DNA from: a phage | Length of the DNA: 64,000 nt | Sequence record: PX092659.1 | Reading direction: 5' to 3' (one strand) | Part shown: positions 38,967 to 63,508 of the stretch, one piece after another | How the letters are laid out: every line of letters starts with the position of its first letter | How positions within the stretch are numbered: position 1 is the stretch's first letter | Program-made: the position numbers and the translations under genes | The notes under the pieces: model-generated | The model's input: only the letters and a program-made list of their open reading frames with translations | Told to the model about the DNA's origin: nothing | Database searches by the model: none

Positions 38967-39623
38967 TTGGAAAAGTTCTTACAATTATTAACGGTACTGC
39001 TCCAAGAAGCGAAAGATCCAGCATCGCTTCTTAAACGTCTGCTAACTATCTTAGTTGCTGTCATTATTTTCTTATTTGTTAGTAATACTAGTGAGGTGAT
39101 GTCGTTCTTAAAGACTTTCTCCACGTCTGCGGTTCTACAGGATGTTCAAACTCAAAGGATAAGTAATTTTCCTAACGTAGCTAGAGAAAAGAGCATGGTG
39201 CTTTTTTCCCAAACGGGTGCGGATGCTGTTTTTGTAGTCAAGTATAAACCCGATGCCATTAATGATTATTCTAACATTATTGCATGGGAAAGCAATGCGC
39301 AATTAGATAGGGCTGACTTGGCCGATAAAGCGGTAAATAAGACGTCTGAGCTATATAGACGTCACTTAGACGGCTTTAACTACGCATCGGATTTAAGTGT
39401 AAAAGTAAATAAATACATGGGGTTAAATATACCTGCGTTTAAGAACGTTACTTTTAATTACATATACACTTGTCCGTACTTCAATCTAAACAATATCTAT
39501 GCTGGATATATTGGTATTGCTTGGAAAGATAATCCTGTAGATGCAGCCGATTCTGAGAAATTTAACGAGTATTTAACAAAGCTCTGTTCCCCACAACAGA
39601 GATCTTTAGGTAGATCAATATGA
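38967..39623 (+). CDS. hol: putative holin
   Basis: TTG start after GAGGAGG; single N-terminal TM helix; overlaps endolysin start. Confidence 0.55.
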   Translation: MEKFLQLLTVLLQEAKDPASLLKRLLTILVAVIIFLFVSNTSEVMSFLKTFSTSAVLQDVQTQRISNFPNVAREKSMVLFSQTGADAVFVVKYKPDAINDYSNIIAWESNAQLDRADLADKAVNKTSELYRRHLDGFNYASDLSVKVNKYMGLNIPAFKNVTFNYIYTCPYFNLNNIYAGYIGIAWKDNPVDAADSEKFNEYLTKLCSPQQRSLGRSI

Positions 39624-40033
39624 GTTTTAAATTTGGTAAAAATAGCGAAAAACAATTAGCTACCGTTAAGCCAGAGCTACAAAAAGTAGCTCGTAGAGCT
39701 TTAGAATTATCTCCTTATGATTTCACGATCGTACAGGGTATTCGTACAGTAGCACAAAGTGCCCAGAATATTGCTAATGGTACTTCATTCTTAAAAGATC
39801 CTAGTAAAAGCAAGCATATTACTGGGGATGCTCTTGATTTTGCTCCATACATTAATGGTAAGATTGATTGGAATGATTTAGAAGCATTTTGGGCAGTTAA
39901 AAAGGCTTTTGAACAAGCAGGTAAAGAACTAGGCATTAAACTTCGTTTTGGTGCTGATTGGAATGCTTCTGGAGACTATCACGATGAAATAAAACGTGGT
40001 ACCTATGATGGCGGTCATGTCGAACTAGTTTAA
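39620..40033 (+). CDS. lys: endolysin, zinc-dependent L-alanyl-D-glutamate peptidase (M15-type)
   Basis: 137 aa; zinc ligands in SKHITGDALD and DGGHVEL. Confidence 0.8.
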   Translation: MSFKFGKNSEKQLATVKPELQKVARRALELSPYDFTIVQGIRTVAQSAQNIANGTSFLKDPSKSKHITGDALDFAPYINGKIDWNDLEAFWAVKKAFEQAGKELGIKLRFGADWNASGDYHDEIKRGTYDGGHVELV

Positions 40034-44804: not shown

Positions 44805-45334
44805 CACAAGAAAGATTAAAAGAGTTATTTGAATACCGCCCGGAAACGGGCGAGTTTATAAGGAAAGTCAGTAGAGGACGAGGTAAAGCAGGTAGTATTG
44901 CTGGTAGTCCTGATAAGGATGGTTATATATTTATTGGGATAAATAGAAGAAGATATGCAGCCCATAGGTTAGCCTTTTTGTACATGGAGGGGTATATTCC
45001 AAATCTAGTACACCACTTAAATAATATAAGAAAAGATAATAGATGGTGTAATTTAAAAGATTGTACGTCCCAAGAAAATAATCGTAGCAAAATCGCTCAA
45101 TCTAATTCGGGGTACTTAGGAGTTACCTGGAAAAAAGATCGACAACAATGGAGAGTCCAGGCCAGAAGCGCCGAAAGCATTACAGTACACGGAGGCTACT
45201 TTAGGTATCTAGATTTAGAGTTGGCAGTTCAAAGAGCTAATGAACTACGTTTAGAACTACATGGGCCTAATGCTGTTATAGAAACTTTTGATCATACAAA
45301 ACCCTTACCTACTTTAGAGGACTTAAATAAATGA
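44798..45334 (+). CDS. HNH homing endonuclease
   Basis: AAHRLAFLYMEGYIPNLVHHLNNIRKDNRWCNL...QEN and AP2-like GVTWKKDRQQWRVQ. Confidence 0.7.
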   Translation: MLTQERLKELFEYRPETGEFIRKVSRGRGKAGSIAGSPDKDGYIFIGINRRRYAAHRLAFLYMEGYIPNLVHHLNNIRKDNRWCNLKDCTSQENNRSKIAQSNSGYLGVTWKKDRQQWRVQARSAESITVHGGYFRYLDLELAVQRANELRLELHGPNAVIETFDHTKPLPTLEDLNK

Positions 45335-45612
45335 TTACAGAAATTCTCATTGGATTGCTAGTGCTTATGACACTAGCAGCGATTGGTGGGATTATTGGTA
45401 TTGTAAGCATACGAAAAAATATGGAGGGTATGATTATTACTAATAGTGGACTTCACTGTCGTTTGATAGAACAAGAACAAGATATTGAACTAGCACAGAG
45501 ACGCTCAGATATTCTAAAAGAAAAACTAAACAATATTGAAGCAATAGCTGGAAATACCAAATTACCTGCCAAAGTAATGCGTGCACAGATAATCACGGAG
45601 ATTAAAAAATGA
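45331..45612 (+). CDS. small membrane protein (93 aa)
   Basis: N-terminal TM helix. Confidence 0.45.
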   Translation: MITEILIGLLVLMTLAAIGGIIGIVSIRKNMEGMIITNSGLHCRLIEQEQDIELAQRRSDILKEKLNNIEAIAGNTKLPAKVMRAQIITEIKK

Positions 45613-45854
45613 TGATGTTTATTCTAGCATTTTATTTGATTGTGGTAGGGGTTCTAGTTACTAAGTACCATACATGGGCACCAAAGAATGTAGGTAAGGT
45701 AGCACTGTTTGTTATCCCAGTTCCACTTATTATACTTTCTATGCTACTGGTGATGTTAATAGGTAAAGTAACAAAAACAGATGTTAAGCGCATTGCTGAC
45801 GAATTGCAACAGTCCTGTGATATGGTTGAGGATATTCTTAAAGATGAAGCTTAA
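45609..45854 (+). CDS. small membrane protein (81 aa)
   Basis: Two hydrophobic helices. Confidence 0.45.
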   Translation: MMMFILAFYLIVVGVLVTKYHTWAPKNVGKVALFVIPVPLIILSMLLVMLIGKVTKTDVKRIADELQQSCDMVEDILKDEA

Positions 45855-46170
45855 TTTTAATGAATTAAATACCTTACATGAGATATTACAGTTTGTGAAT
45901 AATAATATTAGTATTCCAGATGATACACTAGAAGTTCTCAGGGTAATCGAGAAAAAGGTAGGAATTGAAATTGAGGACTCTTGGAAACCACTTTCTGTAT
46001 TAACACCTCTTAATATGAAAGTGATAGTTAAAAATATCGATACTGGTGAAGAATGTAAGATGATTCGTAAAGAACTAGCTGATAGTTATTCACCAAAGTC
46101 TGTAGTAATGTATCATGATGACACACCTAAGATCCTACAGACAGCTAATTACGTATGGCGTCTCCCATGA
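45844..46170 (+). CDS. hypothetical protein (108 aa)
   Basis: Listed ORF 45781.. trimmed to ATG overlapping upstream stop. Confidence 0.45.
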   Translation: MKLNFNELNTLHEILQFVNNNISIPDDTLEVLRVIEKKVGIEIEDSWKPLSVLTPLNMKVIVKNIDTGEECKMIRKELADSYSPKSVVMYHDDTPKILQTANYVWRLP

Positions 46171-46314
46171 TTGATTTAGTACCAATTACTGCGGGGCTAC
46201 TGGCACTATTAGTGCTCGCAGTTTTTATTATTGTGGAGCAGGCCAAAGTAATAAGGAGACTTAAAAACAATGATAAAACGTCTTGTTTATCAGGCACCAA
46301 AGATTGTAACTGAG
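46168..46314 (+). CDS. small membrane protein (48 aa)
   Basis: Plus-strand ATG overlapping upstream stop; preferred over antisense ORF 46145..46354. Confidence 0.3.
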
Positions 46315-47507: not shown

Positions 47508-47948
47508 ATGAGAGAGAAAGTAAATGAATTATTAATCGAGGAAGCTAACAACTTTCCAATAAATAGGTTCATTAAATCGGATGGTTCTATTAATAGAACT
47601 AAGATTAAGCAGCTACATTCCGACTTCCAGCAAGAAGCACTAAACCTTATATTTATCAAGAAAGCCGTTGCAGCTCACGGGGCTTTCTTCGGATATGAGC
47701 GTGTAAATTATAAAACAATGCAACAGCAAGTAGAGATCTATTGTCCAGATCACGATGATTATTACTGGCAAACTGCTAGATCTCATTTAGAAGGGCATGG
47801 TTGTCGACTGTGTGCACACAAGGTTGTGCAGCGTGTCACGGATTATGGAACCTATACCGTACCAGCATGTTATCATAAATTTGTAATTGACGATAACCAT
47901 ATAGTTTGGTATAATAAGTTTTCAAAGTTAAGAATGGAGATAAAATAA
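47508..47948 (+). CDS. hypothetical protein (146 aa), Cys/His cluster
   Basis: Listed ORF 47406.. trimmed to ATG; HGCRLCAH motif. Confidence 0.45.
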   Translation: MREKVNELLIEEANNFPINRFIKSDGSINRTKIKQLHSDFQQEALNLIFIKKAVAAHGAFFGYERVNYKTMQQQVEIYCPDHDDYYWQTARSHLEGHGCRLCAHKVVQRVTDYGTYTVPACYHKFVIDDNHIVWYNKFSKLRMEIK

Positions 47949-48133
47949 TGGAAACTCTTTTTATTTTAATGCTAGTAGGTTCCTTGCTAGTTATACTAGC
48001 ACTTCTATTTATTTGCAATCTTCTTAATAAAGAGAACCTAGAGTTAAAGTGTGAGAACCAAATCCTTAACCGTGAGATTAAACAATATAATCTAGCAGCT
48101 CATAATCTGCTAGACAAACTGGAGAATAAGTAA
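47948..48133 (+). CDS. small membrane protein (61 aa)
   Basis: N-terminal TM helix then coiled coil. Confidence 0.45.
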   Translation: METLFILMLVGSLLVILALLFICNLLNKENLELKCENQILNREIKQYNLAAHNLLDKLENK

Positions 48134-57187: not shown

Positions 57188-58852
57188 ATGATTATTTCCG
57201 CAGAAAAACAAACCGTTATCCTGAAAATGGCCGCTGACTTTAATTTCTATGGTAAACGTCTGCGCGCCACTAAACTGGAGGTCTGCGACGATATATCAAA
57301 AGCGGTCTATGATACTACAAAACACTCGACCGCGATTTGTGATTGGTTGGAAGCAAATAAACCAGCGAAACCAAAAGCGGCGAAAGTAGCAAAAGCCATT
57401 AAAAACGACGAGCGCCCAGAAGCGGCGGGGATTGTTTCTAGTACCGTGGAACAATGGGAAGTAAAACAAGGTAAACGCTTTATTATTACGTCGATTCAGA
57501 ATAATACTTTCCCGCATAAAAACTTTTTAGCCTCGTTGGAGCAATTTGCTAAATATATCGGCGCTGATTTGCTGGTTAGCAAGTATATTTATAATAAAAA
57601 CGGATTCCAAAATGGCGAGGGTGCAGATGGAATAAAATATGATTCCGCGTTCGATAAATATATTTGCAGCAAAAACGTGTTTTTGAATAATCGCCGTTTT
57701 GCTTTCATGGCTGAAATTAACGTTTTGCCCACCGCAGATTATCCGCTTTCTGGATTCGCTGAAACTGCAACCGCGCTTAATCTGGAAGGTCTGGCAATTG
57801 GAGCGGCTAAAATCACCGCCGAAAGCGTGCCAGCTTTAAAAGGTGAAATTGTGCGCCGCATGTATTCAACCGGAACGGCAACGCTCAAAAACTACATTCA
57901 GCAGAAAGCAGGGCAAAAAGCCGAAGCATTGCATAATTACGGTGCGCTTATTGTCGAGTTTGATGAGGACGGTGAATTTTTTGTTCGCCAGCTTGAAACG
58001 ATGGACGAAAGCGGCATGTTTTATGATCTGAATATCTGCGCGACCCCCGCCGGATGTTTTGAAACGTCCGATCATGTTTTAGGCTTGCAATATGGCGATA
58101 TTCACGCCGAAAAATTAGATGATGATTGTGCCGTTGCGTCATGGGCTGGCGAAAATAGCTTGCTTGATATTCTCAAGCCTAAATATCAGTTTATCCATGA
58201 CGTGCATGATTTCACATCACGCAACCATCATAACCGTGCGTCAGGTGTATTCCTAGCGAAACAGTATGCAGCCGGACGTGATAAAGTTCTGGATGATCTT
58301 ATCGATACCGGTCGCGTGCTGGAATCAATGGAACGCGATTTTAGCCAAACAATCATTGTTGAATCGAATCACGATTTGGCGCTATCCCGTTGGCTTGATG
58401 ATCGTAATGCTAACATTAAAGACGATCCAGCCAATGCGGAACTATATCACCGCCTAAATGCTGCGATTTATGGAGCTATTGCAAAGCAGGATGATACTTT
58501 CAACGTGCTAGATTATGCGCTGCGTAAGGTTGCAGGTTGTGAGTTTAACGCCATTTTCCTAACGACTGACCAATCTTTCAAGATTGCAGGCATTGAATGC
58601 GGCGTACACGGTCACAACGGCATAAACGGCAGCCGTGGCAATCCGAAACAGTTTAAGAAATTGGGTAAACTGAACACGGGGCACACTCACACCGCCAGCA
58701 TTTACGGCGGGGTATACACCGCTGGCGTGGCTGGTAGTCTGGATATGGGTTACAACGTTGGCGCGTCAAGCTGGACGCAAACGCATTTAATTACATATGC
58801 AAACGGTCAGCGCACTTTGATCGACTTTAAAAACGGTAAATTCTTTGCCTAA
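57188..58852 (+). CDS. A1: pre-early A1-like protein, predicted metallophosphatase/nuclease
   Basis: 554 aa; GDIH, HDVHD, ESNHD, GVHGHNG, GHTH phosphoesterase motifs; position and size match phage T5 A1. Confidence 0.65.
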   Translation: MIISAEKQTVILKMAADFNFYGKRLRATKLEVCDDISKAVYDTTKHSTAICDWLEANKPAKPKAAKVAKAIKNDERPEAAGIVSSTVEQWEVKQGKRFIITSIQNNTFPHKNFLASLEQFAKYIGADLLVSKYIYNKNGFQNGEGADGIKYDSAFDKYICSKNVFLNNRRFAFMAEINVLPTADYPLSGFAETATALNLEGLAIGAAKITAESVPALKGEIVRRMYSTGTATLKNYIQQKAGQKAEALHNYGALIVEFDEDGEFFVRQLETMDESGMFYDLNICATPAGCFETSDHVLGLQYGDIHAEKLDDDCAVASWAGENSLLDILKPKYQFIHDVHDFTSRNHHNRASGVFLAKQYAAGRDKVLDDLIDTGRVLESMERDFSQTIIVESNHDLALSRWLDDRNANIKDDPANAELYHRLNAAIYGAIAKQDDTFNVLDYALRKVAGCEFNAIFLTTDQSFKIAGIECGVHGHNGINGSRGNPKQFKKLGKLNTGHTHTASIYGGVYTAGVAGSLDMGYNVGASSWTQTHLITYANGQRTLIDFKNGKFFA

Positions 58853-58919: not shown

Positions 58920-59312
58920 ATGAAAAAGCAAAATATTCCATTCGATCGCGCTCAATCTTCCATTGTTCTGGTTTATTCTAATGGCGAACGTTACCACGTC
59001 GAGGCGGGGCACGTTATTGATGAGCTATTGGACTTTAACGACGCCTTGCAGGTTACTACCTTTGCATATATGCAAGGTAAACTAACCAGCCATATTAAGG
59101 CAAAAGGCGTTTATGTTGACACGGTGAAACAAGAAACGATTATCATCGACTCCGTAAAATCCGGCCTAGCCTTTGCAGTTGTCGCGCCTTGCCCCGCTTG
59201 CCCCGATGATCAATTGACCAGCGCAAAGGTATATACCTGCGCGGGCATTCGTTCCGGTGTATCTGGTGAAGATATTAGTTTTATTGCTGATGCGTTGGCG
59301 TATGGTCTTTAA
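58920..59312 (+). CDS. A2: pre-early A2-like protein
   Basis: 130 aa immediately downstream of the A1-like gene; assigned by position and size only. Confidence 0.45.
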   Translation: MKKQNIPFDRAQSSIVLVYSNGERYHVEAGHVIDELLDFNDALQVTTFAYMQGKLTSHIKAKGVYVDTVKQETIIIDSVKSGLAFAVVAPCPACPDDQLTSAKVYTCAGIRSGVSGEDISFIADALAYGL

Positions 59313-59392
59313 TAGTTGATTTATTATTGCCCGCTATTTATAAGCGGGCAATGCTGGATAAACTAAATCCCTTAAATGGAGAACGTAACAAA

Positions 59393-60127
59393 ATGAATCA
59401 AGTTAAAACGAATATTACCCGTAATTTCCCGCATATTTCCCGCGTCATGATTTGGGATCTGGACGGCACTATCATTAATTCTTTCCATCGCGTAGCGCCT
59501 TGCTTTGATAGCGAGGGCAATTTAGATTTAAATAAGTATAAAAATGAAGCCTGCAAACATGATTTAATAATGCAAGATACACTATTGCCCCTTGTTACAT
59601 ATATGCGCCAGTGCATGAATGACGCAAATACTTTAAACATTATTTGCACCGCTCGACTAATGAGCAAGTCGGACTATTATTATTTGCGCAAACAAGGCTT
59701 GCGCGGTCGTGGTAATAGTAATATCCGCGTGTTTTCCCGTGATACACTGCATAAATATTTTGAGGCTGATAAAGTTAGCGAGATATACCACAGCAAAGAC
59801 GCAGTTTATAAAAGTTACTATTTTGGGCTATTCAAACAATTATATCCGAACGCTGATTTTACAATGATTGATGATCATAAAGGCGTGCTATCAGCGGCAG
59901 CGTCATACGGATTTAAAACGCTGGACGCGCAAGCCGTTAATGATATTCTATCGATCGGCGTTACATTGATAGGTGAAACCTTTATTGATGAATCTCTTGA
60001 GGATGATAATGATTATCAGTTCCTAGCCGATCGCTTGCAATTATGTTGGGAAAGTATGACCGAAGAAGAACGCGCAGAATATAGTTGCAGCCCGCAACAA
60101 TATATTGAGAAATTAAAAGTTGCGTAA
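59393..60127 (+). CDS. dmp: HAD-family 5'-deoxyribonucleotidase-like protein
   Basis: HAD motif I WDLDGTIIN; 244 aa from ATG 59393 (listed ORF starts further upstream at 59327). Confidence 0.65.
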   Translation: MNQVKTNITRNFPHISRVMIWDLDGTIINSFHRVAPCFDSEGNLDLNKYKNEACKHDLIMQDTLLPLVTYMRQCMNDANTLNIICTARLMSKSDYYYLRKQGLRGRGNSNIRVFSRDTLHKYFEADKVSEIYHSKDAVYKSYYFGLFKQLYPNADFTMIDDHKGVLSAAASYGFKTLDAQAVNDILSIGVTLIGETFIDESLEDDNDYQFLADRLQLCWESMTEEERAEYSCSPQQYIEKLKVA

Positions 60128-60144
60128 TAATTAAAGTTGAAATT

Positions 60145-60181
60145 GTTTCACCCTGCAATTAAAATGGTTGCAGGGTGAAAC
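60145..60181 (+). terminator. strong hairpin (possible terminator) after the dmp-like gene
   Basis: Perfect 14-bp stem gtttcaccctgcaa/ttgcagggtgaaac with 9-nt loop; no clear T-run. Confidence 0.45.
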
Positions 60182-60291
60182 AGTTAGCATGGTAATAGTA
60201 ACGGGGGTGGCGGTTAGCAGACTAAGTATTTTCGCCGGAGGCAGTGAGCACACCCTCATGTGTAATCTTATGAAATTTGGCAAAAGTCAAA

Positions 60292-60537
60292 TTAGCGCAT
60301 AGAAGGGTCATCAAACCTGTGTTCTGGTCTGAACTCACGGAATCTCTTCCGCGACGCCCGAGAACCATCCGACCACTCCCGTTCAAACTCCGCACGTTTC
60401 TCCGAGAATCTCCGCTCTCTTTCCGCAATCTCCCGCGATACTTCCGCAATATATTTACGATGCTTGTTAATAGCCGCAGTCATTCCGAAAACTCCCGCGA
60501 TTATCCCGATAATAAAAGCAACTATAATACTAAACAT
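60292..60537 (-). CDS. small membrane protein (81 aa), last of tandem array
   Basis: N-terminal TM helix MFSIIVAFIIGIIAGVFGM then R/E-rich tail. Confidence 0.45.
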   Translation of the reverse strand: MFSIIVAFIIGIIAGVFGMTAAINKHRKYIAEVSREIAERERRFSEKRAEFEREWSDGSRASRKRFREFRPEHRFDDPSMR

Positions 60538-60724
60538 CTAATTCCCTCTCAATTTGCAGAATACGGGTACTATCACAACGTTGAAGTTCTACTAATTTTT
60601 CTATAGCAAATTGTTGCTGCTTTACCTGGGCCTCTAGAGTTTTTAGACGAACATACGCGGTATAAGAAACAATGAAAATTGCCCAGACTAGTATTACTAT
60701 TAGTGTAGCTGCCACTTCCATCAT
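60530..60724 (-). CDS. small membrane protein (64 aa)
   Basis: N-terminal TM helix then coiled-coil tail; ATG overlaps upstream stop. Confidence 0.45.
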   Translation of the reverse strand: MMEVAATLIVILVWAIFIVSYTAYVRLKTLEAQVKQQQFAIEKLVELQRCDSTRILQIERELDV

Positions 60725-60828
60725 TTACGTTTCTCCAGTAATAAGGTTTCAACTCTAGCTAAGTGATTATCTAAAATACATTGCCCGATAATCACAATCC
60801 CTAGTAATGCAATAATTACCCATTCCAT
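60721..60828 (-). CDS. small membrane protein (35 aa)
   Basis: Hand-translated MEWVIIALLGIVIIGQCILDNHLARVETLLLEKRK; ATG overlaps stop of upstream ORF. Confidence 0.3.
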   Translation of the reverse strand: MEWVIIALLGIVIIGQCILDNHLARVETLLLEKRK

Positions 60829-60983
60829 TATTTACGCTCCTCTAATAAAATTTCAATCCTAGATAATCTGTTACTCAACTGTACTAATTTAACTTCTACT
60901 TGTGTTATAGAGGTATCTATTACACGTAAGCCTACAAAGAGAAGTATCAGTAAGACGAATATGCCAATAATTACCCATTCCAT
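60828..60983 (-). CDS. small membrane protein (51 aa)
   Basis: Listed ORF 60828..61013 trimmed to MEWVIIGIFVLLILLFVGL..., paralogous to 60721..60828. Confidence 0.4.
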   Translation of the reverse strand: MEWVIIGIFVLLILLFVGLRVIDTSITQVEVKLVQLSNRLSRIEILLEERK

Positions 60984-61111
60984 TAAATCCACCCCGCCAT
61001 AGCTGCTAACCAAAAACCTACGAAAATAAAGAATAGGATAGTTCCGAATCCAAAGCTATTAATCCAACTATCGTACACTTCTCCGCGTCTATTCTTTCTT
61101 TTATTTGACAT
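60983..61111 (-). CDS. small membrane protein (42 aa), first of tandem array
   Basis: Hand-translated MSNKRKNRRGEVYDSWINSFGFGTILFFIFVGFWLAAMAGWI; GGAG RBS upstream on minus strand. Confidence 0.3.
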   Translation of the reverse strand: MSNKRKNRRGEVYDSWINSFGFGTILFFIFVGFWLAAMAGWI

Positions 61112-61272
61112 GTCTTTCATACTCCTGTAAATGTTGTATTTGGAATATTCTAGCAATTGCACGAGTCATAACATTTTATCTTATATGGTGTTCTGAATGA
61201 CCTCAATTGCATTGTGAACTAGTTTTGACCTAGGATCCACCCCGGTACACATTCCTGGAAAGATTTTTCCTG

Positions 61273-61506
61273 TTAGAAAGCCCCTTCGCATGTATTTCCT
61301 TCGGTAAAGTAGCTTACCGGAGCCCAGAAAGACCCGTAGGCCATGATTGGTGCCACTAAGAACATATCCCCTTTCCTATCAAAAACATTGGCCTTATATT
61401 TCACATGATCCTGCATATAGTAGGCCTCACATTTAATATCTTTAGGCCCAAAAGTAGAGCAAGCCGAAAGAAGTACCACTGCCAGAGCTAAAAATAATTT
61501 TTTCAT
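61273..61506 (-). CDS. llp: Llp-like lipoprotein (lytic-conversion / receptor-blocking type)
   Basis: 77 aa; signal peptide with lipobox LLSAC; divergent from the adjacent receptor-binding gene, the arrangement known for T5 llp/oad. Confidence 0.65.
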   Translation of the reverse strand: MKKLFLALAVVLLSACSTFGPKDIKCEAYYMQDHVKYKANVFDRKGDMFLVAPIMAYGSFWAPVSYFTEGNTCEGAF

Positions 61507-61585
61507 TTACATTCTCCTCTATTTAATTTATAATACTATTATACAGAATTATGGCAGTATAAGCAACTAAATTTTTGGAGAACTT

Positions 61586-63508
61586 ATGAGTTTTTTCGCT
61601 GGTAAGCTAAATAACAAATCTATACTCTCACTGCGAAGGGGTAGTGGTGGGGATACTAACCAACATATCAACCCTGATTCCCAAACCATCTTTCACTCAG
61701 ATATGCCGCACGTAATTATAACGGAAACTCATTCTACTGGGTTAAGGTTGGATCAGGGTGCTGGTGACTATTACTGGTCTGAGATGCCTAGTAGAATTAC
61801 ACAGCTACATAATAATGACCCCAATAGAGTTGTGCTAACAGAAATTGAGTTTTCTGATGGCTCTAGACATATGTTATCTGGCATGTCTATGGGGGTAGGG
61901 GCTAAAGCGTATGGAATTATAAATCCGCAGGTCATGTCTCAAGGTGGTTTAAAAACACAAATAACAGCTAGTGCTGATCTATCTCTTGATGTGGGCTATT
62001 TTAATAGTGGTACTAGTGGAACTATCCCCCAGAAATTAAGAGACGGTACTGGATGTCAGCATATGTTTGGCGCCTTTAGTGGGCGTAGAGGGTTTGCATC
62101 TAGTGCAATGTATTTAGGGGGTGCCGCTCTTTATAAGTCTGCCTGGGATGGTTCAGGATATGTAGTGCCGGATTCAGGAACTCTAACTATCCCTAGCGAC
62201 TACGTTAGGCATCCCGGAGCTAGAAACTTTGGATTTAACGCCATATATGTTCGTGGTAGGTCTTGTAATAGAGTTCTTTATGGTATGGAAGGGCCCAACT
62301 ACACCACTGCTGGAGCTGTACATGGGGCGTCGAGTTCAGGGGCTCTTAACTTTATGTCTAATCCTAGCAATCCCTCGGCTCCTAAGTACTCTGTAGGTTT
62401 CGCACGTGCTGATCCCACTAACTATGCGTATTGGGAAAGTATGGGTGATCCGAATGATGCTGCTAATGGGCCCATAGGTATATATAGTGAGCACCTCGGT
62501 ATTTATCCATCTAAAATTACCTGGTATGTTACTAACTTAGTGTATAATGGTTCAGGTTATAGTATTGATGCTGGATTATTTACAGGTAATGATATAAAAT
62601 TAAGCCCCACTGAATTTATTATTAAAGGTATTAACGTTAATAATACATCTTGGAAGTTTATCAACTTTGTTGAGAAAAACTTTAATGTAGGGAGCAGAGC
62701 TGATTTTCGTGATGTTGGGTGTAACTTGAGTATGGGTGGCCCCTCTACTGGGATCTCTGGCATAGCAACATTTGGACTACCAACCACAGAAAGCAATAAC
62801 GCACCAAGTATTAAGGGTGGTAACGTTGGTGGTTTAAATACTAATGTAGTTAGTATTTATAACTTTTTACCTTCAGCATCTTGGTATGTTTCTAGTAATC
62901 CTCCAAAAATAGGGAGTAATTATGGGGACGTTTGGAGTGAAAATCTTCTACCTTTAAGACTTCTAGGTGGTAGCGGAAGTACTGTACTATCTGGTAACAT
63001 AGTATTTCAGGGTAATGGTTCCGTGCATGTTGGTACTGTGGGACTAGATCTTAATAGTAGTAGAAATGGTGCAATTGTATGTACTATGGAGTTCCTAGAT
63101 GACACATGGTTGTCTGCAGGAGGTATTGGCTGCTTTAATCCTACGGAAATGCTATCTAAAGGCGCTGAATATGGCGATAGTAGGTTTAGAATGGGTGGCA
63201 ATACTATTGATAAAAAACTTCACCAAATATTGTCCCTACCTGCAGGAGAATATGTACCATTTTTTACTATTAAAGGTACTGTAGTAAATGCTTGTAAATT
63301 ACAGGCTGCTGGGTATACTCCAACTCCGTACTGGGTATCTGGGTTGCCAGGATCCGTAGGTCAAACGGGTTACTATACTCTAACATACTATATGAGAAAT
63401 GATGGAAATAATAATATCTCTATTTGGTTAGAATCCTCTATGAGCAATATAATTGGCATGAAAGCATGCTTACCAAATATTAAACTTATAATTCAACGCC
63501 TTACCTAA
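61586..63508 (+). CDS. oad: receptor-binding tail protein pb5/Oad-like
   Basis: 640 aa, Gly/Ser/Asn-rich, divergent from llp; size and context match T5 pb5. Confidence 0.65.

What the first reader, a model, noticed from the sequence alone, without database searches (positions are those of the whole stretch)
60292..61111. Tandem, translationally coupled array of five small single-pass membrane ORFs next to llp
Five minus-strand ORFs (42, 51, 35, 64 and 81 aa) overlap start-to-stop. Two begin MEWVII, and all pair an N-terminal hydrophobic helix with a charged or coiled-coil tail. They lie between the dmp-like gene and the Llp-like lipoprotein, near where the genome terminus is expected.
Basis: seen in the sequence. 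Interest (0 to 1): 0.45.

Follow-up and report, generated by a model that had tools for sequence, protein, structure and literature searches.

The report
T5 small membrane-protein operon beside llp
The five overlapping mini-genes are real, conserved genes for tiny membrane-anchored proteins found only in T5-like phages (T5.159–T5.162, sequenced in 1994, plus one extra copy); their function is still unknown and they are dispensable in the laboratory.

Summary
Window 60292-61111 (minus strand) carries five ORFs of 42, 51, 35, 64 and 81 aa joined by TAATG, TAATG, ATGA and ATGTTTAG overlaps. One detail is wrong: the 42-aa ORF has its hydrophobic helix at the C-terminus.

The window is a T5-like phage. 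The ORFs are orthologues of T5.159-T5.162 (orf1-4 of GenBank X75922). The 51-aa ORF is an extra paralogue of T5.160, present in about 8% of relatives, including phage Bas33.

- **Coding:** dN/dS is 0.13-0.31 in frame and mostly about 1 out of frame. The overlap junctions are conserved.
- **Distribution:** about 445 phage records carry the cassette, whatever receptor module they use. No homologue was found outside T5-like phages.
- **Position:** the array lies in unique DNA, 42 nt before the position that aligns with T5's right terminal repeat. It follows llp with no terminator between them.
- **Published data:** RNA-seq shows the Bas33 cassette transcribed at 20 min. A CRISPRi-ART screen scores the T5 genes "Not Fit".

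My best inference (about 0.35) is a cytoplasmic-membrane complex of small helical proteins expressed with Llp, acting in envelope conversion or superinfection exclusion. This is an already annotated, ordinary feature of unknown function, of low to moderate interest.

The parts
60983..61111 (-). O1, 42 aa. Orthologue of T5.159 (orf1). Basic N-terminus with a C-terminal transmembrane helix; predicted N-in, tail-anchored.
   Evidence: phrog_8596, E 3.6e-32. 95% identical to T5.159. dN/dS 0.13. Present in 448 phage records.
60828..60983 (-). O2, 51 aa (MEWVII...). An extra paralogue of O3/T5.160 with a 14-residue longer zipper-like tail. Absent from T5.
   Evidence: phrog_6369, E 9e-14. Alignment to O3 gives z = 8.7, with 0 of 500 shuffles as good. 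Present in 35 phage records, including HildyBeyeler/Bas33 bas33_0190. dN/dS 0.31 from only 3 sequences.
60721..60828 (-). O3, 35 aa (MEWVII...). Orthologue of T5.160 (orf2). N-terminal transmembrane helix with a short basic tail ending EKRK.
   Evidence: phrog_6369, E 4e-25. 91% identical to T5.160. dN/dS 0.13.
60530..60724 (-). O4, 64 aa. Orthologue of T5.161 (orf3). N-terminal transmembrane helix with a heptad-patterned tail ending RILQIERELDV.
   Evidence: phrog_5851, E 3.4e-35. dN/dS is 0.16 in the tail and 0.55 in the transmembrane helix. Present in 307 phage records, 113 of them below 60% identity. Missing from 7 of 25 IMG/VR loci.
60292..60537 (-). O5, 81 aa. Orthologue of T5.162 (orf4). 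N-terminal transmembrane helix running into a long Arg/Glu-rich helix, then a variable last 14 residues.
   Evidence: phrog_6447 'membrane protein', E 3.6e-46. AlphaFold2 predicts one helix over residues 2-69, mean pLDDT 72.6. dN/dS is 0.17 for residues 23-66. Present in 444 phage records. Only T5-like clusters were found among 1.84 billion representatives.
61273..61506 (-). llp, the FhuA-blocking lytic-conversion lipoprotein (77 aa). It is the upstream gene on the same strand and the probable first gene of the transcription unit.
   Evidence: 96% identical to T5 Llp. phrog_1119, Cor superinfection exclusion protein. T5 annotation.
61538..61566 (-). llp promoter: TTGCTT, 17 nt, TATAAT.
   Evidence: Read from the sequence. 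It lies at the same distance from the llp ATG as the promoter annotated in X75922 and AY587007 ('putative early promoter T5P41').
61112..61272 (-). 161-nt llp-O1 spacer with no terminator-like structure. The last ~55 nt are conserved across relatives with different receptor/llp modules.
   Evidence: No terminator in the scan. RNA fold z-score -0.8. Alignment of 25 loci.
60250..60250 (.). Position that aligns with the first base of T5's right terminal repeat. The repeat runs towards lower window coordinates and is collapsed to one copy in this assembly.
   Evidence: T5 repeat annotation and pairwise alignment. Inferred by homology; not shown for this phage.
60144..60182 (.). 15-bp perfect hairpin inside the terminal repeat, between the converging O5 and dmp genes. 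Probable bidirectional terminator of the llp-O5 unit.
   Evidence: Annotated as a 'putative rho-independent terminator' in AY587007. RNA fold z-score -3.7, with 0 of 200 shuffles as stable.

Best explanation
The region is the five-gene form of a cassette specific to T5-like phages (T5.159-T5.162 plus a duplicated T5.160). It is an accessory operon for very small bitopic cytoplasmic-membrane proteins.

Shown:
- The five ORFs are conserved, selected coding sequences with conserved overlapping junctions.
- They sit in unique DNA between llp and the terminal repeat.
- They are transcribed only after the whole genome has entered the cell.
- Knocking them down gives no measurable defect in the laboratory.

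Inferred:
- They are read through from the early llp promoter and end at the hairpin in the repeat.
- Ribosomes pass from one ORF to the next, giving fixed ratios of the products.
- By the positive-inside rule, O2-O5 insert N-out/C-in and O1 inserts N-in. All the conserved helical tails then face the cytoplasm, where they probably bundle into a hetero-oligomer.

Most likely role (about 0.35): a receptor-independent partner of Llp in converting the envelope of the infected cell. It would block or seal the inner-membrane step of DNA entry by superinfecting T5-like phages, or otherwise protect the membrane. Identity as real small membrane-protein genes is about 0.9 certain; the function is a guess.
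For: - Identity and synteny.
- Coding: in-frame dN/dS is 0.13 (O1), 0.13 (O3), 0.28 (O4), 0.23 (O5 residues 1-66) and 0.31 (O2). Shifted frames give 0.4-2.3.
- Junctions: TAATG/ATGA/ATGTTTAG overlaps are kept in all loci, including 3-gene variants where O3 is fused to O5 by TAATG.
- Tails: they are more constrained than the membrane helices (0.16-0.17 against 0.42-0.55 in O4 and O5). This points to a specific interaction of the soluble parts.
- Independence from the receptor module: the cassette is conserved in about 445 records whether the receptor-binding protein is FhuA-type or only about 30% identical. Homology resumes about 55 nt before O1.
- Transcription unit: same strand as llp, no terminator in the 161-nt spacer, and a strong hairpin after O5.
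- Expression: in Bas33, which carries the same five genes, the cassette reads 137-462 TPM for bas33_0190 and bas33_0188, against 127-219 for llp. All are zero when only first-step-transfer DNA enters (PMC13250531 Dataset S1).
- Dispensability: T5.159-162 and llp are all 'Not Fit' in CRISPRi-ART (PMC11879866 source data), as expected for accessory genes.
- Structure: O5 is modelled as one continuous helix over residues 2-69.
- Background knowledge: known inner-membrane exclusion proteins such as T4 Imm and HK97 gp15 are likewise small membrane proteins, often placed next to tail or receptor genes.
Against: - No experiment links these genes to exclusion.
- From memory of Decker et al. 1994, llp alone accounts for the receptor-blocking phenotype. 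I could not read that paper here.
- The predicted topology puts the conserved tails in the cytoplasm, away from an incoming tail tip.
- No sequence similarity to any known exclusion protein was found.
- Topology, membrane insertion, coupling and complex formation are all predictions.
- No peptide evidence was found.
- The per-gene RNA-seq counts are erratic (about 1 TPM for the O1 and O3 orthologues). This is probably a read-assignment artefact for overlapping genes of about 110-130 nt, but I could not verify that.
- The T5 CRISPRi-ART screen also scored some expected-important genes 'Not Fit', so it is only weak evidence of dispensability.
Confidence: 0.35

Rival explanations
1. The same small membrane proteins act on a host process at the cytoplasmic face of the inner membrane. 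They would be host-takeover or anti-defence factors. Examples are binding a membrane protease or LPS-control complex (FtsH/LapB-type), the division machinery, a transporter such as the TonB-ExbBD energising complex, or a membrane-bound abortive-infection system.
For: The positive-inside rule places all conserved tails in the cytoplasm (sequences). The tails are under stronger constraint than the anchors. O5 gives weak but consistent sub-threshold matches to host 'transmembrane helix plus cytoplasmic helix' families: LapA_dom in 13 of 14 family members (best 22 bits) and ZapG-like at 15 bits. PHROGs files O5 under 'moron, auxiliary metabolic gene and host takeover'. Gene number varies between 3 and 5 across relatives, as is usual for accessory genes. 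The genes are dispensable on K-12.
Against: None of the Pfam matches reaches the gathering score. The profile comparison with E. coli LapA is null, at probability 0.3%. No partner is known. T5's known host-takeover genes lie in the pre-early terminal repeat, not here.
Confidence: 0.3
2. The cassette tunes lysis. Its proteins would be accessory holin modulators (antiholin-like) for the large single-transmembrane holin of T5-like phages.
For: The proteins are small, each with one transmembrane helix and a highly charged tail, which is the generic holin/antiholin look. The window's holin (38967-39623; phrog_860, 218 aa) and endolysin (39620-40033) have no recognised antiholin next to them. From background knowledge, the T4 antiholins RI and RIII are also small, non-essential proteins encoded away from the holin gene t.
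Against: The cassette lies about 20 kb from the lysis genes and behind an early-type promoter. The predicted topology is opposite to RI, whose domain is periplasmic. I know of no lysis inhibition in T5. The knock-down gives no fitness phenotype. T5-like phages are reported to have their own holin, endolysin and spanins in the lysis cassette (PMC4342426).
Confidence: 0.12
3. O5, possibly with its partners, tethers phage DNA to the membrane near the genome end, or tethers the replication or packaging machinery. This would resemble phage phi29 p16.7, which has an N-terminal transmembrane helix, a coiled coil and a DNA-binding end.
For: O5 is a transmembrane helix followed by a roughly 45-residue charged helix and a basic segment (SRASRKRFR), with net charge +5. 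The genes sit 42 nt from the terminal-repeat boundary.
Against: Proximity of a gene to the terminus says nothing about where its protein acts. There is no recognisable DNA-binding domain. The last 14 residues are swapped for unrelated sequence in many relatives without loss of the gene. The knock-down gives no fitness phenotype.
Confidence: 0.08
4. The ORFs are not functional proteins. The reading frames would be by-products of DNA-level constraints next to the packaging or terminal-repeat site, or chance ORFs in AT-rich DNA.
For: The ORFs are very short (35-81 aa). I found no peptide evidence. The knock-downs give no phenotype. AT-rich phage DNA readily yields hydrophobic ORFs: 24 such ORFs occur in the window.
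Against: dN/dS is 0.13-0.31 in frame against about 1 in most shifted frames. A diverged O4 at 44% identity keeps its length, architecture and C-terminal motif. Start codons, Shine-Dalgarno sequences and overlap junctions are conserved in 25 loci. A chain of five coupled ORFs was never seen in shuffles. The region is transcribed.
Confidence: 0.03

Closest known systems
Phage T5 genes T5.159-T5.162 (orf1-orf4 of GenBank X75922; ORF148-151 of AY587007; PHROGs 8596, 6369, 5851 and 6447)
   Same: They are direct orthologues, 87-95% identical at the protein level. Order, strand, overlapping junctions and position between llp and the right terminal repeat are all the same.
   Different: The window has one additional gene, O2. 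It is a paralogue of T5.160 with a 14-residue longer tail, absent from T5 but present in 35 other records such as Bas33/HildyBeyeler.
Small inner-membrane superinfection-exclusion proteins (T4 Imm, HK97 gp15, P22 SieA) - from background knowledge
   Same: They are small membrane proteins, non-essential, and encoded beside tail, receptor or exclusion genes. The proposed action is at the inner-membrane step of DNA entry.
   Different: No sequence similarity was detected. The window has five separate one-helix proteins rather than one protein. The tails are predicted to be cytoplasmic. No phenotype has been shown.
Llp / Cor outer-membrane lipoproteins (phrog_1119)
   Same: llp is the neighbouring gene, on the same strand and probably on the same transcript. 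It is accessory and 'Not Fit' in the same screen.
   Different: O1-O5 have no signal peptide with a lipobox. They are unrelated in sequence. They are conserved independently of which Llp or receptor module a phage carries.
Host bitopic 'transmembrane helix plus cytoplasmic helix' proteins (LapA domain PF06305, ZapG/YhcB PF06295)
   Same: O5 has the same architecture: an N-terminal anchor followed by a long charged helix. It gives weak matches, with LapA_dom at 22 bits in 13 of 14 family members.
   Different: The matches are below the gathering thresholds of 28 and 33.5 bits. hhalign against E. coli LapA gives a probability of 0.3%.
i-spanins (lambda Rz type)
   Same: Both have an N-terminal transmembrane helix with a helical or coiled-coil tail, and a small outer-membrane lipoprotein gene lies nearby.
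   Different: The tails are 16-59 residues, too short to span the periplasm, and are predicted to be cytoplasmic. The cassette is about 20 kb from the holin and endolysin. T5-like phages are reported to have their own spanins (PMC4342426). Llp has a known, different function.

Membership tests
T5.159-T5.162 small membrane protein families (PHROGs 8596 / 6369 / 5851 / 6447) | Significant full-length profile match | tested here: met
   E-values are 3.6e-32 (O1), 9e-14 (O2), 4e-25 (O3), 3.4e-35 (O4) and 3.6e-46 (O5), all full length.
T5.159-T5.162 small membrane protein families (PHROGs 8596 / 6369 / 5851 / 6447) | Synteny: same strand as llp, between the receptor-binding-protein/llp module and the right terminal repeat/dmp, with overlapping junctions | tested here: met
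   T5 annotation. 25 IMG/VR loci. Junction sequences. Repeat boundary.
T5.159-T5.162 small membrane protein families (PHROGs 8596 / 6369 / 5851 / 6447) | One hydrophobic transmembrane-length segment per protein | tested here: met
   The best 19-residue Kyte-Doolittle windows score 2.1-3.1. The T5 record notes 'contains single transmembrane domain'. Actual membrane insertion was not tested.
Cor/Llp superinfection-exclusion lipoproteins | Signal peptide with a lipobox cysteine, and a match to phrog_1119 | tested here: not met
   Only llp (61273-61506) matches phrog_1119 and has LLSAC. O1-O5 have neither feature.
Two-component spanin (i-spanin) | N-in/C-out topology with a periplasmic coiled-coil domain long enough to reach the outer membrane (typically about 100 residues or more) | tested here: not met
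   The tails are 16-59 residues. Basic residues directly follow the transmembrane helix and the N-termini are acidic (ME-), which predicts C-in. The topology itself is a prediction.
Two-component spanin (i-spanin) | Placed in the lysis cassette, with an embedded, overlapping or adjacent o-spanin lipoprotein gene | tested here: not met
   The holin and endolysin lie at 38967-40033. No lipobox ORF is embedded in the cassette.
Holin / antiholin | Membrane-lesion formation, or control of lysis timing | not testable with these tools
   Only the generic architecture fits (small, one transmembrane helix, charged tail). No holin family matched.
LapA domain (Pfam PF06305) | Score at or above the Pfam gathering threshold (28 bits) | tested here: not met
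   The best score is 22 bits, E 1.6e-4. 13 of 14 family members match at E <= 0.1 and none reaches the threshold. hhalign against E. coli LapA gives probability 0.3%.
ZapG/YhcB-like (Pfam PF06295) | Score at or above the gathering threshold (33.5 bits) | tested here: not met
   15.3 bits, in 3 of 14 members.
Inner-membrane superinfection-exclusion proteins (T4 Imm, HK97 gp15 type) | Sequence relationship to a described exclusion family | tested here: not met
   No exclusion family appears among the PHROG or Pfam matches of O1-O5. Family searches return only T5-like phage proteins.
Inner-membrane superinfection-exclusion proteins (T4 Imm, HK97 gp15 type) | Blocks DNA entry of a superinfecting phage after normal adsorption | not testable with these tools
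   This needs plating and DNA-entry assays with the cloned cassette.

The most novel reading that the evidence does not exclude
The cassette encodes a previously unrecognised, multi-subunit inner-membrane device made of three to five one-helix proteins in fixed ratios. It would give T5-like phages a receptor-independent second layer of superinfection exclusion or membrane protection alongside Llp, for example by blocking or resealing the channel formed by the tape-measure protein pb2. That would explain why it is conserved whichever TonB-dependent receptor a phage uses.
Probability: 0.25. Interest if true: 0.55.

Novelty: already known. Interest (0 to 1): 0.25.

Why it matters
T5 is a classic model phage, and T5-like phages are widely used in therapy and biocontrol. 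This cassette is present in essentially every Tequintavirus and Epseptimavirus genome and has had no assigned function since it was sequenced in 1994. If it proves to be an envelope-conversion or exclusion module, it would add a new family of very small membrane effectors. It would also matter for phage cocktails, because related T5-like phages could exclude one another regardless of receptor. As it stands, the finding adds no new element. It confirms that already annotated hypothetical genes are real and under selection, and it clarifies their layout, variants and likely topology.

Tried and rejected
1. **Spanin idea** (Llp as o-spanin, O4/O5 as i-spanins). Rejected: the tails are too short and predicted cytoplasmic, the lysis genes are 20 kb away, and T5-like phages are reported to have their own spanins.
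2. **LapA or ZapG membership.** The weak Pfam matches did not survive the gathering thresholds or the hhalign comparison with E. coli LapA.
3. **O4 as a paralogue of O2/O3.** The tails are not significantly similar (z = 0.5 and -0.7). Only O2 and O3 are paralogues.
4. **Remote homologues.** The O5 profile against 1.84 billion representatives found only 5 T5-like clusters. The word-indexed searches for O5 and O4 returned only T5-like phage proteins. The PDB sequence search gave only chance coiled-coil matches.
5. **Fold search.** Not run, because the O5 model is a single helix and any matches would be meaningless.
6. **A separate conserved promoter before O1.** Only a -10-like TAGAAT/TAAAAT element about 40 nt upstream is conserved, with no conserved -35. 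This is left open.
7. **Positional analogues in distant relatives.** A Klebsiella phage has two, though sequence similarity is limited to the membrane helix. Proteus PM135 and Vibrio D325 have none.
8. **Paralogy with other small membrane ORFs of the window.** None beyond hydrophobic similarity.
9. **Literature.** No paper in the library names T5.159-162 in its text. The Davison 2015 review could not be retrieved, and I did not try to retrieve Decker et al. 1994. One keyword search on genome reduction was unproductive.
Full report
**What is there**

The window is a T5-like phage (Tequintavirus) read in the opposite orientation to the T5 reference. Its terminal repeat is collapsed to one copy. 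On the plus strand lie A1 (57188-58852), a 130-aa ORF that I take to be A2-like, by position only (58920-59312), and dmp (59327-60127). Five small ORFs and llp (61273-61506) follow on the minus strand, then the receptor-binding protein pb5 (61586-63508) on the plus strand.

| ORF | Coordinates (minus strand) | Length | T5 orthologue |
|---|---|---|---|
| O1 | 60983-61111 | 42 aa | T5.159 |
| O2 | 60828-60983 | 51 aa | none (paralogue of T5.160) |
| O3 | 60721-60828 | 35 aa | T5.160 |
| O4 | 60530-60724 | 64 aa | T5.161 |
| O5 | 60292-60537 | 81 aa | T5.162 |

- The junctions overlap as TAATG, TAATG, ATGA and ATGTTTAG.
- Four ORFs have a good Shine-Dalgarno sequence. O2 has only a weak one (GGTGG) and probably depends on coupling.
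- One detail is wrong. O1 has a basic N-terminus (MSNKRKNRRGE) and a C-terminal hydrophobic helix. It is anchored the other way round from the other four.
- A chain of five coupled hydrophobic ORFs occurs once in the window. The longest chain in 30 shuffles was 0-1.

**Identity**

Megablast finds 242 T5-like phage records. T5 itself is 92.8% identical over 84% of the region.

- In T5, four of these genes are annotated as T5.159-T5.162, 'hypothetical protein, contains single transmembrane domain'. They are ORF148-151 in AY587007 and orf1-orf4 in the llp-oad-dmp record X75922.
- Each window ORF matches its own PHROG full length: 8596, 6369, 5851 and 6447. All are of unknown function.
- O2 is the extra gene. 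It falls in the same PHROG as O3. It aligns to O3 with z = 8.7, including the MEWVII start and the RIE-LL-E-K end, and has a 14-residue insertion in the tail.
- O2 is found in 35 phage records. One is HildyBeyeler/Bas33, which has the same five-gene array, bas33_0191 to bas33_0187.
- O4 is not demonstrably related to O2/O3.

**Are they genes?**

In 25 IMG/VR loci plus T5 the ORFs are intact almost everywhere.

| ORF | In-frame dN/dS | Shifted frames |
|---|---|---|
| O1 | 0.13 | 1.15, 1.40 |
| O2 (3 sequences) | 0.31 | 0.52, 1.20 |
| O3 | 0.13 | 0.36, 2.34 |
| O4 | 0.28 | 0.83, 0.84 |
| O5 (residues 1-66) | 0.23 | about 0.9-1.1 (measured on the full-length gene) |

- In O4 and O5 the soluble tails are more constrained (0.16-0.17) than the membrane helices (0.42-0.55).
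- The overlapping junctions are conserved in every locus. This includes three-gene variants, where O3 joins O5 directly by TAATG.
- A diverged Epseptimavirus O4 at 44% identity keeps its length, architecture and the C-terminal ERELDV.
- Across 50,697 phage records, O1 occurs in 448, O5 in 444, O4 in 307 and O2 in 35.
- The core is therefore O1, an O3-type gene and O5. O4 and O2 are optional.
- The cassette is conserved whether the neighbouring receptor-binding protein and llp are FhuA-type or an unrelated type with about 30% identity. Homology resumes about 55 nt upstream of O1.
- Outside T5-like phages nothing was found. The O5 profile against 1.84 billion representative proteins returned five clusters, all T5-like. 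The two word-indexed searches returned only T5-like proteins.

**Position and transcription**

- In T5 the right terminal repeat starts 42 nt after the T5.162 stop. That base aligns to window 60250. The array is therefore the last unique DNA before the right repeat. It is not part of the first-step-transfer segment.
- llp has a TTGCTT-N17-TATAAT promoter at 61566-61538. This is where T5's llp promoter is annotated, as 'putative early' in AY587007.
- The 161-nt llp-O1 spacer has no terminator and no unusual structure (z = -0.8).
- A perfect 15-bp hairpin lies after O5 at 60144-60182. T5 annotates it as a putative terminator. It sits between the converging O5 and dmp genes (z = -3.7).
- I infer one transcription unit: llp, O1-O5, hairpin. 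A separate weak promoter before O1 is not excluded.

**Published data**

- Bas33 RNA-seq at 20 min (PMC13250531, Dataset S1; two replicates):

| Gene | TPM |
|---|---|
| llp homologue | 219 / 127 |
| O1 | 0.8 / 1.0 |
| O2 | 162 / 137 |
| O3 | 0.5 / 1.2 |
| O4 | 462 / 408 |
| O5 | 22 / 13 |

- The O1 and O3 orthologues, of 129 and 108 nt, are the two near-zero values. This alternation most likely reflects read assignment among tiny overlapping features, but I could not check that.
- All these values are zero when daunorubicin confines the infection to first-step-transfer DNA.
- In the genome-wide CRISPRi-ART screen of T5 (PMC11879866), T5.159-162 and llp are all 'Not Fit'. They are therefore dispensable on laboratory E. 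coli. That screen also missed some important genes, so this is weak evidence.
- I found no peptide evidence.

**Anatomy and likely mechanism**

- O2-O5 start with M, ME or MME, then a hydrophobic helix of about 17-22 residues, then a cluster of basic residues (for example NKHRKY in O5 and VRLK in O4).
- O1 has five basic residues before its helix and nothing after it.
- The positive-inside rule therefore predicts N-out/C-in for O2-O5 and N-in for O1. All conserved soluble parts would then face the cytoplasm.
- The O2, O3 and O4 tails show a/d heptad spacing of Leu, Ile and Val.
- O5 has Ile30, Ile37, Phe44 and Phe51 exactly seven residues apart on an Arg/Glu-rich helix.
- AlphaFold2 models O5 as one helix over residues 2-69, with mean pLDDT 72.6.
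- Overlapping junctions, constrained tails and zipper-like patterns together suggest a bundle of small helices anchored in the membrane and made in fixed ratios. This is inference.

**Function**

- The spanin reading fails. The tails are too short, the predicted side is wrong, the cassette is 20 kb from the holin and endolysin at 38967-40033, and T5-like phages are reported to have their own spanins.
- The LapA_dom and ZapG-like matches are below threshold. The direct comparison with E. coli LapA is null.
- What remains is context. This is an accessory set of small inner-membrane proteins, expressed early, co-oriented with the exclusion gene llp, and conserved independently of receptor type.
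- I therefore commit, at about 0.35, to an envelope-conversion role: exclusion or protection at the inner membrane, complementing Llp at the outer membrane.
- The rivals are host takeover or anti-defence at the cytoplasmic face (0.30), lysis-timing control (0.12), a DNA or membrane tether (0.08), and non-functional ORFs (0.03).

**Novelty and verdict**

The array is real, selected and transcribed. It is also an already annotated feature of T5 and of hundreds of relatives, and the five-gene form is present in public genomes. Nothing in the sequence departs from that family. The open question is its function, which has stood for thirty years and which these tools cannot settle. Interest is low to moderate.

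Noticed in passing
window 60292-60335 (O5 codons 67-81); relatives L012, L017, L018, L020-L022, L025-L027: The 3' end of O5 and the repeat boundary are a hot spot for insertion of HNH homing endonuclease genes. In many relatives an ORF of 157-184 aa sits right after O5 codon 67, or in L012 at the repeat boundary. It replaces the last 14 residues of O5 with unrelated tails (MSESGDKPVDRRSS, KINGKS, AKVSDEE). L019 and L024 carry the MSESGDKPVDRRSS tail followed by a 67-71 aa ORF instead of an endonuclease gene. The window has no insertion.
   Followed up: partly
window 60256-60278: The 23-nt block AAATTTCATAAGATTACACATGA lies just before the position aligned with T5's terminal-repeat start. It is identical in T5 and recurs in most relatives, judging from its FHKITH translation. 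It may be a recognition or cutting site for the packaging enzyme.
   Followed up: no
window 45331-45612, 45609-45854, 46155-46313, 47948-48133 (plus strand): The early region holds a second group of small ORFs with an N-terminal membrane helix and a charged or coiled-coil tail. Two of them overlap by 4 nt. One (METLFILML..., 61 aa) has the same build as O2-O4. No sequence relationship to the cassette was detectable.
   Followed up: partly
L030 (Klebsiella phage vB_Kpn_K7_rec18) 3853-4308 and 4312-4536, minus strand: A more distant relative has two ORFs of the same architecture (74 aa starting MEVVIG..., and 151 aa) in the same place between the receptor-binding protein and dmp, with no llp. 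Similarity to O2/O4 is confined to the membrane helix. Proteus PM135 and Vibrio D325 have nothing comparable.
   Followed up: partly
public records of O4, O5 and llp orthologues: Database names look wrong. Many O4 orthologues are called 'tail assembly protein', some O5 orthologues 'tail fiber protein', and llp is called 'lysozyme' in the EC100-EC142 phage records. None of these names has support in the sequences.
   Followed up: no
window 61112-63508 compared with 60292-61111: The locus is mosaic. The window's pb5 is 100% identical in protein to that of phage FFH_1 (L006), yet O1 is only 81% identical to FFH_1's. Homology between loci with different receptor modules resumes about 55 nt before O1. 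This suggests a recombination junction in the llp-O1 spacer.
   Followed up: partly
Bas33 RNA-seq, PMC13250531 Dataset S1 (bas33_0187-0192): Read counts alternate between hundreds (O2 and O4 orthologues) and 1-2 reads (O1 and O3 orthologues) within one overlapping gene array. This is probably a counting artefact for genes of about 110-130 nt, and would mislead anyone reading per-gene expression values.
   Followed up: no
window 60131-60283, minus strand: A 42-50 aa ORF (MRVCSLPPAKILSLLTATPV...) spans the repeat boundary and the terminator hairpin and recurs in several relatives. It is most likely kept open by DNA-level conservation rather than being a gene.
   Followed up: no
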